Below are positions 45,356 to 46,810 of a DNA stretch of 64,000 nt, piece by piece. The translations under genes and the position numbers were made by a program. Within the stretch, counting starts at the first letter, position 1. The number at the start of each line of letters is the position of its first letter. Source of the stretch: the human T2T-CHM13v2.0 reference genome, Homo sapiens; the NCBI RefSeq assembly GCF_009914755.1, contig NC_060928.1. One strand, 5' to 3'. The notes beneath the pieces are model-generated. The model was not told the DNA's origin and made no database searches. It worked only from the letters and a program-made list of their open reading frames with translations.

Positions 45356-45374
45356 GTGCCACCCAGATGTAGCC

Positions 45375-46511
45375 ATGAATACCCATAGCCTCACCCTGTT
45401 CTCCTTTCTCCTACTGGCTTCTCAGGTGCTCCTGGTGGAGGGGAAAAATGGAGTAAAGCAGACAATAGAGTAATGCCCGGGGATCAATGGGTCCCCCTGG
45501 GAAAGCCCTAGAGCTCCAGATTGTGACAAAAACCCTGCCATACAAGTTCCCAATCACAGCAGCCTTGTCACTAAAGACCAAGCCAACTGTAGATGGGCTG
45601 TGACTGAGTAGGCAGAGGGCATCACTCTCAAAGTTGAGGGTGTTTGAATGAACAGTGAGTTTTCCTGTGTCTCTGTGGGCAATCCAGACTGTGCCTACGG
45701 TTTTTGGACAACAATGTGGTCTACTGGAAATAAATTAGCTAGAACCTGTGCCACAAGAAACATGCCTATGAGAACTCCAAGGCCAACCTGGTGACCAGGG
45801 CATGTTGTCAGAAGTATCCAGAATCCAATGTCAAGCTGGTGAATTCCACTCTGATCACAAATAAGAGACCCAGCCACAATGACATGGAACTCATGCCCAC
45901 GGTGTGGGATAAGGTCGAAGAGTCCACTTGTAGGGACCCAACCAAGGTCAAACCATGCTTCCCCAAGCAGAAGACCCAGATCCAAGAGTTATTCTCCACA
46001 GAGTCATTGAGGATAGAAGAGATCACCCCCACAGGGCCAATCAAGACCAAAAAGACCATCCCTACAGTGCCAATCAAGATCTCAAACACCACCCCCACAG
46101 AGCCAATCACCACCAAGATACCACCACCATAGAGCAAACTGAAGAGTCCACTCCCACTGAGACAATCAAGACAGAAAAGATCACTACCACAGAGCAGGTG
46201 GAAGTGGAAAAGACCATCCCTACAGAGCTAATGGAGGTCCCAGAGACCATTCTGAAATATCGGATAGAGATGAGAGAGTTCACAAAGCCAAACCAGGACT
46301 TAGAAAGCACCCTCACCAGCTCAACACAGACACAAATCTTGACCACTGCTAAACCAAGTTATGCAAATACACAAGGCAGCAAAACTCTGTTAAAGACAAC
46401 CCAGCAGACAGATCAGCAAATGGACCAGCCAGTAGATCAGTAGTAATGTGGAAAGTCCTGGAGCTCCTTCTGCAATATCTTCCTCATGGTATTACAGACA
46501 TGTAATGGTAA
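45375..46511 (+). pseudogene. FGFBP1-like unprocessed pseudogene (FGF-binding protein paralog) with an internal 11-aa repeat expansion
   Basis: Translates to [24 protein letters not shown] (FGFBP1: [24 protein letters not shown]), LVTKDQANCRWAVTE*AEGITLKVE, EFSCVSVGNP, CLRFLDNNVVYWK*IS*NL, TRACCQKYPESNVKLVNSTL and CGKSWSSFCNIFLMVLQ (FGFBP1: CGETWSSLCTFFLSIVQ). Stops at 45471, 45609, 45645, 45731, 45740, 46441 and 46444; 1-nt frameshifts near 45687-45691 and 46106-46137. Confidence 0.93.
45908..46323 (+). repeat. Degenerate 33-nt coding tandem repeat, about 13 units
   Basis: Units start at 45908, 45941, 45974, 46007, 46040, 46073, 46106 (32 nt), 46138 (27 nt), 46165, 46198, 46231, 46264 (27 nt) and 46291; for example atcaagaccaaaaagaccatccctacagtgcca and atcaagatctcaaacaccacccccacagagcca. 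Confidence 0.85.
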
Positions 46512-46804
46512 TTAGGTTAAGAGAACAGGGCAGGTCATGTCATAAGCCCCTCTGTATGCTGTAAAGTTTCCCATAAGCTATGAACTTTTGTGGTATGAGA
46601 GTATAGTGGAATATTTAACAGATTTCATAATTTTTGTTCTTTGTGTTTTGCTTTATATTCACTTCCTTGGATATGATTTTCAGAGGCTATCTACCTCATT
46701 ATATACTTCCATGGCCCACACGGCAATGTGCATATGAGCAGAGAAGACCTGTCCTTGAGCTGAATGAGGCAGAGTGATGAACTTACTGCTGAATTAGCAA
46801 AGAT

Positions 46805-46810
46805 AATACA
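46805..46810 (+). terminator. Variant poly(A) signal AATACA closing the pseudogene 3' UTR
   Basis: About 300 nt after the former stop, at the end of a stretch resembling the recalled FGFBP1 3' UTR (ttccatggcccacac...ttgagctgaatgag...ctgctgaatta); followed by T/GT-rich DNA with no genomic poly(A) tail. Confidence 0.45.

What the first reader, a model, noticed from the sequence alone, without database searches (positions are those of the whole stretch)
45356..46810. Dead FGFBP1 paralog: a lost extra member of the FGF-binding-protein family
Seen in the sequence: hand translation across stops and frameshifts gives a signal peptide, the TKDQANCRW...FSCV...YWK...KYPES domain and a C-terminal CGKSWSSFCNIFL motif, all colinear. 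The ORF track shows only two fragments of it. Established (recalled): these match human FGFBP1, a 234-aa secreted FGF chaperone whose CDS lies in one exon. Inference: the retained splice acceptor, the FGFBP1-like 3' UTR and the lack of a poly(A) tail or TSD point to a genomic duplicate rather than a retrocopy, probably near FGFBP1/FGFBP2 (human 4p15). It may be a unitary pseudogene of a gene still intact in other mammals. I cannot tell whether it is already annotated.
Basis: partly seen in the sequence, partly recalled or inferred. Interest (0 to 1): 0.85.

Follow-up and report, generated by a model that had tools for sequence, protein, structure and literature searches.

The report
Dead human copy of FGFBP1-like gene
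This is a long-dead human gene related to the growth-factor carrier FGFBP1, and it appears to be the remnant of a fourth family member that horses, rhinos, rabbits and some carnivores still carry as an open gene.

Summary
Window 45375-46446 (+) reads, across 5 premature stops and 2 frameshifts, as a signal peptide, an FGF-BP1 domain (Pfam PF06473) and a Thr/Pro-rich repeat tail. A relic of the C-terminal CGxxWxxxC motif follows two stop codons.

It is a genomic duplicate, not a retrocopy. Unique two-copy DNA homology with the FGFBP1 locus, 371 kb away and inverted, runs from window 41881 to 50290 through the intron, the splice acceptor, the 3'UTR and flanks. These flanks differ at about 21% of sites.

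It is probably not simply a dead FGFBP1. Public protein sets hold open "FGFBP1-like" proteins from horse, black rhino, mink, lynx, mole, colugo, rabbit, pika and hare. Many of them show the same added block after the domain, 11-residue TP repeats and a Q/D-rich tail. All 12 scanned lack the C-terminal FGF-binding part. The human remnant groups with them in two trees, but with only moderate support, and synteny could not be checked.

A titi monkey copy is decayed as well, at the identity expected for neutral drift.

RefSeq already lists the first half as an FGFBP1 pseudogene. The text searches found no paper describing it or the paralog lineage. Interest is modest.

The parts
41881..43834 (+). 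Upstream flank homologous to the region upstream of FGFBP1 (C4:15922929-15920902)
   Evidence: 80.5% identity over 1898 aligned sites. In the genome only itself and the FGFBP1 locus match its full length; a repeat of about 155 bp at 42452-42607 matches many other sites.
43892..44240 (+). Alu-like insertion at the point where 1.8 kb of the FGFBP1 locus (C4:15920902-15919086) has no counterpart
   Evidence: It matches many Alu-like copies in the 100-kb FGFBP1 region at 78-84%. The missing FGFBP1 segment is single-copy in the genome. That the segment holds the FGFBP1 core promoter and exon 1 is inferred from a recalled gene span, not shown by any search.
44232..45355 (+). Homolog of the 3' part of the FGFBP1 intron, interrupted by a second Alu-like element at 44532-44867; ends in the acceptor AG at 45354-45355
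   Evidence: 76% identity for 44232-44500 and 84% for 44874-45374. The acceptor context TTTTGTCAAACAG|GTG is identical in both loci. That this AG is FGFBP1's real exon boundary is recalled gene structure, not taken from an annotation seen here.
45375..45689 (+). Coding remnant, piece 1: ATG, signal peptide and first half of the FGF-BP1 domain, with stops TAA 45471, TAG 45609 and TGA 45645
   Evidence: (PF06473 profile 1-86, E 7e-13). TAG aligns with CAG and TGA with CAA in FGFBP1.
45690..45691 (+). One-base deletion (frameshift) in the codon between GNPD and CLRFLDNN
   Evidence: DNA alignment with FGFBP1: GACT-GTGC against ACCTCATGC. Frame 0 changes to frame 2 here.
45692..46117 (+). Coding remnant, piece 2: second half of the domain (VVYWK, KYPES) with stops TAA 45731 and TAG 45740, then the lineage-specific block and the start of the TP-rich repeats
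   Evidence: profile 83-182, E 2e-13. The part after the domain matches horse (E 1e-6) and mink (E 1e-5) FGFBP1-like proteins but not human FGFBP1 (E 3.4).
46020..46135 (+). Tandem repeat of 33 nt (11 residues), 3.5 copies, inside about 420 nt that FGFBP1 lacks
   Evidence: Tandem Repeats Finder score 120 with 76% matches. Window 45852-46442 faces only 171 nt of FGFBP1.
46118..46119 (+). Approximate place of the second frameshift (frame 2 to frame 1), inside the repeats
   Evidence: Frame 2 ends in TAG at 46130, while frame 1 carries on the TP-repeat reading (TTTIEQTEESTPTE...). The exact base is not determinable.
46120..46446 (+). Coding remnant, piece 3: TP repeats and Q/D-rich tail, ending in TAG TAA at 46441-46446
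   Evidence: It matches rabbit FGFBP1-like at E 1e-9. Horse, rhino and rabbit proteins also end in a Q/D-rich tail whose last residue is Q.
46447..46515 (+). Relic of the C-terminal CGxxWxxxC FGF-binding motif, lying behind the double stop
   Evidence: Pfam profile 168-227, E 2.4e-3. 53% identity to FGFBP1 residues 214-230.
46516..46810 (+). Homolog of the FGFBP1 3'UTR, ending in a decayed poly(A) signal AATACA at 46805-46810
   Evidence: 73% identity over 291 sites; alignment.
46811..50290 (+). Downstream flank homologous to DNA beyond the end of FGFBP1 (to C4:15913699)
   Evidence: 78% identity over 1800 sites for 46811-48630. The blocks further out are 71-74% identical. In the genome the long matches are only to itself and to the FGFBP1 locus.

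Best explanation
The locus is a non-functional unitary pseudogene. An inverted genomic duplication of about 8-9 kb copied the whole FGFBP1 gene with its flanks to a site 371 kb away, at roughly the time of the early placental radiation.

The copy became a distinct secreted protein, here called FGFBP1-like. It kept the signal peptide and the N-terminal cysteine domain. It gained an extra block, 11-residue Thr/Pro-rich repeats that look mucin-like, and a Gln/Asp-rich tail. It stopped being translated before the C-terminal FGF-binding motif.

That gene is still open in horse, rhino, mink, rabbit and others. In the line to humans it lost constraint before the split from New World monkeys. It then collected 5 stops, 2 frameshifts, 3 lost cysteines and a broken poly(A) signal, and it probably lost its promoter and first exon.

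Shown: the homology, the lesions, the genomic mode of duplication and the open relatives. Inferred: orthology, the dates, the loss of FGF binding and the promoter deletion.
For: Pfam PF06473 matches all three pieces colinearly, and tblastn with FGFBP1 agrees.

Unique colinear DNA homology with the FGFBP1 locus covers window 41881-50290, including the intron and the DNA beyond the 3'UTR. Flanks differ at 20.8% of sites, JC about 0.18-0.33 by block.

Open FGFBP1-like proteins are held from horse (394 and 436 aa), black rhino (388, 371), mink (324), lynx, mole, colugo, rabbit (349), pika and hare.

All 12 scanned match the Pfam profile only as far as position 144-194 of 228. Human and donkey FGFBP1 match 1-228 and 2-227.

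The remnant's region after the domain matches horse, mink and rabbit FGFBP1-like (E 1e-6, 1e-5, 1e-9) but not human FGFBP1 (E 3.4). The block TKVKPCFPKQKTQ aligns with TKVIPFFPKKGIQ of horse. In the alignment this block is absent from all 5 FGFBP1 rows and from the unnamed early-branching relative P0011.

Two maximum-likelihood trees put human and titi remnants with the FGFBP1-like clade, with support 80/81 and 85/50.

Human against titi model: 154 of 200 residues identical (77%). A neutral simulation gives 76-80% at 10-12% DNA distance.
Against: Tree support is not strong. An AU test does not reject placing the remnant with primate FGFBP1 (p 0.196).

Over the N-terminal domain the remnant is as similar to human FGFBP1 (49%) as to rabbit or pika (43-47%) and horse (36%) FGFBP1-like.

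No genome of another mammal could be read. Synteny, the position of the stop codon in the open genes and their intactness at the DNA level are therefore untested. The other species' proteins are automatic predictions.

The coding part differs from FGFBP1 more than the flanks do (30.3% against 20.8%, Fisher p 6e-6). This is not explained and could mean the flanks are not neutral clocks.

Thr/Pro-rich repeats could in principle expand independently.
Confidence: 0.75

Rival explanations
1. It is an old duplicate of FGFBP1 that was dead from the start or died soon after. It is not orthologous to the FGFBP1-like genes of other mammals, which arose by separate duplications and grew similar repeats on their own.
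For: The AU test does not reject a placement with primate FGFBP1 (p 0.196). Domain identity is highest to FGFBP1 (49%). FGFBP1-like genes have duplicated again within perissodactyls and lagomorphs, so the family does duplicate repeatedly. FGFBP1 itself has a short Thr/Pro-rich stretch that has duplicated in donkey. Seven lesions in about 355 codons fit a long period of decay.
Against: The block after the domain and the Q/D-rich tail are shared with horse, mink and rabbit proteins and are absent from FGFBP1. Both trees place the remnant with the FGFBP1-like clade. The flank divergence gives an age compatible with a duplication before the orders split (the rate is recalled).
Confidence: 0.15
2. 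It is a processed retrocopy of FGFBP1 mRNA.
For: The whole coding sequence is uninterrupted, as a retrocopy would be. But the FGFBP1 coding sequence lies in one open frame of genomic DNA anyway.
Against: Homology continues upstream of the acceptor into intron sequence at 84% identity and about 3.5 kb past the poly(A) signal. There is no poly(A) tract after 46810.
Confidence: 0.01
3. It is a recent, primate-only segmental duplication of FGFBP1.
For: It lies close to FGFBP1 on the same chromosome arm.
Against: Non-coding flanks differ at about 21% of sites. That is well above the roughly 11% recalled for human against New World monkey genomes. A titi monkey copy exists and is 77% identical at the residue level.
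Confidence: 0.04

Closest known systems
Human FGFBP1 (C4:15917609-15918313, minus strand)
   Same: Same Pfam family. The signal peptide is nearly the same, and TKDQANCRW, FSCV, YWK and PES are kept. The gene layout is the same: an acceptor just before the ATG and the coding sequence in one exon. Intron, 3'UTR and flanks are homologous.
   Different: The remnant has 5 stops and 2 frameshifts, and it has about 420 nt of extra repeat-rich sequence. The reading frame ends before the C-terminal motif. It is 47% and 38% identical at the residue level over the two halves of the domain, or 49% over the domain columns.
Predicted FGFBP1-like proteins of horse (P0003, P0070), black rhino (P0071, P0072), mink (P0073), rabbit (P0014) and pika (P0005)
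   Same: Signal peptide plus N-terminal FGF-BP1 domain, an extra residue in the CLRxLDN segment, and 11-residue TP repeats. The block after the domain is full in horse, rhino and mink and partial in rabbit and pika. Horse P0003, rhino P0072, rabbit and pika carry a Q/D-rich tail, while horse P0070, rhino P0071 and mink end otherwise. None has the C-terminal FGF-binding part.
   Different: Those are open reading frames and the human locus is broken. Identity over the domain is only 35-47%. Repeat numbers differ. They are automatic predictions, and I found no paper on them.
RefSeq LOC100421364, 'fibroblast growth factor binding protein 1 pseudogene' (hub table, window 45375-45981)
   Same: Same locus and strand, and the same start at the ATG.
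   Different: The annotation stops at 45981. The repeat region, the tail, the stop at 46441-46446, the C-terminal relic and the 3'UTR homolog to 46810 are left out. The name implies descent from FGFBP1 itself rather than from a separate paralog lineage.

Membership tests
FGF-BP1 family (Pfam PF06473) | Significant match to the family profile | tested here: met
   Two pieces score 49.3 and 51.3 bits against a cut-off of 25. The third scores 18.1 bits. The genome search places the locus among only four in the genome.
FGF-BP1 family (Pfam PF06473) | N-terminal signal peptide for secretion (the review PMC13732962 names it as a family feature; passages read) | tested here: inconclusive
   [23 protein letters not shown] aligns with the start of FGFBP1, [23 protein letters not shown]. 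No signal-peptide predictor was run.
FGF-BP1 family (Pfam PF06473) | Conserved cysteines of the N-terminal domain | tested here: not met
   Three conserved cysteines are replaced: KVEGV for KVEC, HAYENS for ICxxS and KPSYAN for P(E/S/N)C. This is expected in a decayed copy.
FGF-BP1 family (Pfam PF06473) | C-terminal FGF-binding domain within the protein (named in PMC13732962; passages read) | tested here: not met
   The motif CGKSWSSFCNIFL lies after TAG TAA. All 12 FGFBP1-like relatives scanned lack profile positions beyond 144-194 of 228.
Unitary pseudogene (a lost gene with no working copy in this genome and an intact ortholog elsewhere) | Disabled reading frame | tested here: met
   5 premature stops and 2 frameshifts.
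Unitary pseudogene (a lost gene with no working copy in this genome and an intact ortholog elsewhere) | No intact copy of the same lineage elsewhere in the genome | tested here: met
   A whole-genome search with horse P0003 finds only FGFBP1 and this locus. The Pfam search finds only FGFBP1, FGFBP2, FGFBP3 and this locus.
Unitary pseudogene (a lost gene with no working copy in this genome and an intact ortholog elsewhere) | Intact ortholog in other species at the syntenic place | tested here: inconclusive
   Open relatives exist and share derived features. Trees agree with moderate support. Synteny cannot be tested with these tools.
Processed pseudogene (retrocopy) | Homology confined to the mRNA, with a poly(A) tail and no intron or flank homology | tested here: not met
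   Intron and flank homology are seen, and there is no poly(A) tract.

The most novel reading that the evidence does not exclude
Placental mammals had a fourth FGFBP lineage, an FGFBP1-derived secreted protein. It swapped the FGF-binding C-terminus for mucin-like Thr/Pro repeats and an acidic Gln-rich tail, so it probably no longer carries FGFs. It evolves fast and has duplicated again in perissodactyls and lagomorphs. It was lost in anthropoid primates, and no rodent form turned up in the searches. The human locus is its fossil, and the excess divergence of its coding part over its flanks may record adaptive change after the duplication.
Probability: 0.6. Interest if true: 0.45.

Novelty: new member of a known kind. 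Interest (0 to 1): 0.35.

Why it matters
A 2026 review of the family states that the human genome encodes three FGFBPs and does not contain the words pseudogene or paralog (PMC13732962; passages only).

If the reading here holds, humans lost a fourth member that other mammals keep. That member has a different build, with no FGF-binding end and a mucin-like tail. This bears on how FGFBP1-like genes in horse, rabbit or mink should be named and studied.

It also explains why the RefSeq pseudogene annotation stops halfway. And it gives a dated example of gene birth, change of function and loss next to a medically studied gene.

It has no evident consequence for human biology today.

Tried and rejected
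- **Long open frames as a sign of recent constraint: rejected.** The 129- and 169-codon frames lie in a stretch with 13.7% T. Shuffles of 45743-46440 give a mean longest open run of 100 codons, and 1.9% of shuffles reach 169. The minus strand also has a 139-codon run.
- **Upstream extension of the duplicate to 38374-39392: rejected.** That stretch is a dispersed repeat with 4765 first-look candidates.
- **A second relic elsewhere in the genome:** none found with the Pfam model or with horse P0003.
- **AU test of the remnant with primate FGFBP1:** not rejected (p 0.196), so the protein tree alone does not settle orthology.
- **Rfam on 41000-51000:** 0 matches at gathering score.
- **Literature.** No paper held LOC100421364, FGFBP1P1, FGFBP1-like or 'FGFBP1 pseudogene'. 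The phrase 'growth factor-binding protein 1-like' occurred once, in a fish transcriptome paper seen only in the listing. 'FGFBP1L' hits were the label Fgfbp1_Low. The search for FGFBP1 + FGFBP2 + FGFBP3 + paralog gave 0 papers. The listings held nothing on this locus.
- **Horse GWAS paper PMC13244276** (passages only): it lists genes near TAPT1 and LDB2 but does not place the horse FGFBP1-like genes.
- **Exon 1 of FGFBP1:** I could not confirm its position from any tool.

Full report
**What is there.**

On the + strand an ATG at 45375 opens a reading that can be followed through three frames.
- Frame 0 (45375-45689) gives [23 protein letters not shown]..., TKDQANCRW and FSCV. It has stops TAA 45471, TAG 45609 and TGA 45645.
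- After a one-base deletion at about 45690, frame 2 (45692-46117) gives CLRFLDNNVVYWK and KYPES. It has stops TAA 45731 and TAG 45740, followed by a 129-codon open stretch.
- After a second shift near 46118, frame 1 (46120-46440) gives Thr/Pro-rich repeats and a Gln/Asp-rich tail that ends in TAG TAA (46441-46446).
- Directly behind these stops, in the same frame, lies CGKSWSSFCNIFL.

Pfam PF06473 matches the three pieces colinearly: profile 1-86 at E 7e-13, 83-182 at E 2e-13, and 168-227 at E 2.4e-3. tblastn with human FGFBP1 gives 47%, 38% and 53% identity for the three pieces, and no other convincing hit in the window. The Pfam model finds only FGFBP1, FGFBP2, FGFBP3 and this locus in the whole genome.

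**How it arose.**

DNA homology with the FGFBP1 locus is not confined to the coding part. FGFBP1 lies at C4:15917609-15918313 on the minus strand.
- Colinear blocks run from window 41881 to 50290, facing C4:15922929-15913699 in inverted orientation.
- Aligned-site identity is 80.5% upstream and 76-84% in the intron homolog.
- It is 73% in the 3'UTR homolog, 78% in the next 1.8 kb and 71-74% further out.
- The acceptor context TTTTGTCAAACAG|GTG is identical in both loci.
- The FGFBP1 poly(A) signal AATAAA is AATACA at 46805-46810.

The flanks are two-copy in the genome, matching only themselves and the FGFBP1 locus, apart from a short repeat at 42452-42607. An apparent further block at 38374-39392 is a dispersed repeat and was dropped. 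The locus is therefore a genomic duplicate of about 8-9 kb, not a retrocopy. Its ATG is 371,062 bp from that of FGFBP1.

One 1.8-kb single-copy segment of the FGFBP1 locus (15919086-15920902) has no counterpart here. An Alu-like element (43892-44240) sits at that place. From the recalled span of the FGFBP1 gene, this segment should hold its core promoter and first exon. That is an inference I could not check.

**Age.**

Pooled flanks differ at 20.8% of sites, or 19.9% without CpG sites. JC distances by block are 0.18-0.33. Halved, that gives about 0.09-0.16 substitutions per site per copy. With recalled estimates of human-lineage neutral change since the early placental radiation (about 0.12-0.15), the duplication dates roughly to that time. 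This estimate is imprecise.

**Relatives.**

A full HMMER scan of 1.84 billion representative proteins, using the second piece as query, gave 13 hits. Word-index searches added names.

The best hit, P0001 (73% identity), is a titi monkey gene model. It is made of Alu-derived exons plus pieces of the same pseudogene and is misnamed UPF0764 protein C16orf89. It skips the part of the domain where the human copy has most of its stops, and it does not include the signal peptide.

The other relatives fall into two groups.
- **Ordinary FGFBP1 orthologs.** These are 221-303 aa long and end in CGExW...C.
- **Open "FGFBP1-like" proteins.** These come from horse (P0003 394 aa, P0070 436 aa), black rhino (P0071, P0072), mink (P0073), lynx (P0008), mole (P0079), colugo (P0081), rabbit (P0014 349 aa), pika (P0005) and hare (P0015). 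Unnamed P0002, P0006 and P0009 belong here too.

The second group has the signal peptide and the N-terminal domain. Many members then carry an extra block, 11-residue TP repeats and a Q/D-rich tail. In a Pfam scan, 12 of 12 match the profile only to position 144-194 of 228. Human and donkey FGFBP1 match 1-228 and 2-227.

**Is the human remnant one of them?**

For:
- The region after the domain (window 45860-46117) matches horse P0003 at the colinear place (E 1e-6) and mink P0073 (E 1e-5). It does not match human FGFBP1 (E 3.4).
- The tail piece matches rabbit P0014 at E 1e-9.
- In the alignment the extra block is filled in the human and titi remnants, both horse proteins, rhino_b, mink and lynx, in part in mole, rabbit and pika, and in none of the 5 FGFBP1 rows nor the unnamed early-branching relative P0011. 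The block reads TKVKPCFPKQKTQ in human and TKVIPFFPKKGIQ in horse.
- The human tail ...QQTDQQMDQPVDQ-stop resembles the tails of horse_a, rhino_b and rabbit, which all end in Q.
- Two maximum-likelihood trees place human and titi remnants with the FGFBP1-like clade. One used 41 rows and gave support 80/81. The other dropped FGFBP2, FGFBP3, mole and colugo as long branches and gave 85/50.

Against:
- That support is moderate.
- An AU test does not reject a placement with primate FGFBP1 (p 0.196).
- Raw identity over the domain is no higher to FGFBP1-like proteins (35-47%) than to FGFBP1 (44-49%). This would follow if FGFBP1 keeps more ancestral states.
- Synteny in other species could not be examined.

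I put orthology at about 0.75.

**The C-terminal motif.**

None of the open relatives carries the FGF-binding end. The human tail runs straight into TAG TAA two codons before the Cys, where FGFBP1 has GAG TTC. The simplest reading is that the stop is ancestral to the lineage and the CGKSW motif is a 3'UTR fossil. It is then not a part of the lost protein.

The review PMC13732962 (passages read) locates FGF2 binding of FGFBP1 in the C-terminal domain. So the FGFBP1-like proteins probably do not carry FGFs in the canonical way. This is inference.

**When it died.**

The human and titi readings share 154 of 200 residues (77%). A neutral simulation on the human sequence gives 76-80% at 10-12% DNA distance, which is the recalled human to New World monkey divergence. 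FGFBP1 itself is 88% identical between human and squirrel monkey over 165 residues. This fits decay in both lines since before their split.

Titi has Tyr where human has TAA 45471, so that stop probably arose on the human side of the split. Three of the five stops face CAA or CAG in FGFBP1 and one faces CGG.

No primate FGFBP1-like protein turned up in the searches, only FGFBP1 of lemurs, loris and monkeys. That is weak evidence of absence. Colugo has a predicted one (P0081), but it is on a long branch.

The long open frames in 45743-46440 are largely an effect of T-poor composition and are not a sign of recent constraint.

**Unexplained.**

The 5' coding part differs from FGFBP1 at 30.3% of 459 sites. 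That is more than the flanks (Fisher p 6e-6, and 1e-5 without CpG). The differences are spread over all three codon positions: 34%, 25% and 32%. Possible causes are adaptive change after the duplication, or constraint or gene conversion in the flanks. I cannot tell which.

**What is known.**

- RefSeq lists LOC100421364, an 'FGFBP1 pseudogene', at 45375-45981 (hub table). That is the first half only.
- Full-text searches found no paper with LOC100421364, FGFBP1P1, FGFBP1-like or 'FGFBP1 pseudogene'.
- The 2026 review says the human genome encodes three FGFBPs and does not contain the words pseudogene or paralog (passages only).
- Subscription journals and supplements were not searched.

**Verdict.**

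This is a real, partly annotated pseudogene. Its likely identity as the human fossil of a distinct, remodelled FGFBP1-like lineage is a modest new point. Interest 0.35.

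Noticed in passing
window 42452-42607: A stretch of about 155 bp inside the upstream flank matches tandem arrays on many chromosomes at about 80% (for example C20:59976351-59977260, C7:100456682-100457831, C12:2725289-2726224). It is also included in the aligned FGFBP1-locus copy, so it predates the duplication.
   Followed up: no
P0001 (titi monkey protein model): A 518-aa public gene model named 'UPF0764 protein C16orf89' is a chimera of Alu-derived exons and pieces of this pseudogene. 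It looks like an annotation artefact.
   Followed up: partly
P0003, P0070, P0071, P0072, P0014, P0005, P0015, P0006: The FGFBP1-like lineage seems to have duplicated again. Horse and rhino each have two forms that pair across species (support 97/82 and 97/82, then 99/84 and 97/82). Lagomorphs have two types, one rabbit/pika-like and one hare-like.
   Followed up: partly
names: Public names are inconsistent. Horse P0003 (394 aa, repeat type) is called 'FGFBP1'. Meanwhile bat (Sturnira, Pteronotus, Saccopteryx) and gundi proteins called 'FGFBP1-like' group with true FGFBP1 in the trees.
   Followed up: partly
window 38374-39392 and 51012-51327: These are copies of an old dispersed repeat that also lies upstream of FGFBP1 (C4:15922934-15924165). 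They mimic an extension of the duplicated block.
   Followed up: yes
window 45375-45852 against flanks: The coding part is more diverged from FGFBP1 than the intron and flanks are (30% against 21% of sites). The 3' end of the intron is the best-kept block (84% identity).
   Followed up: partly
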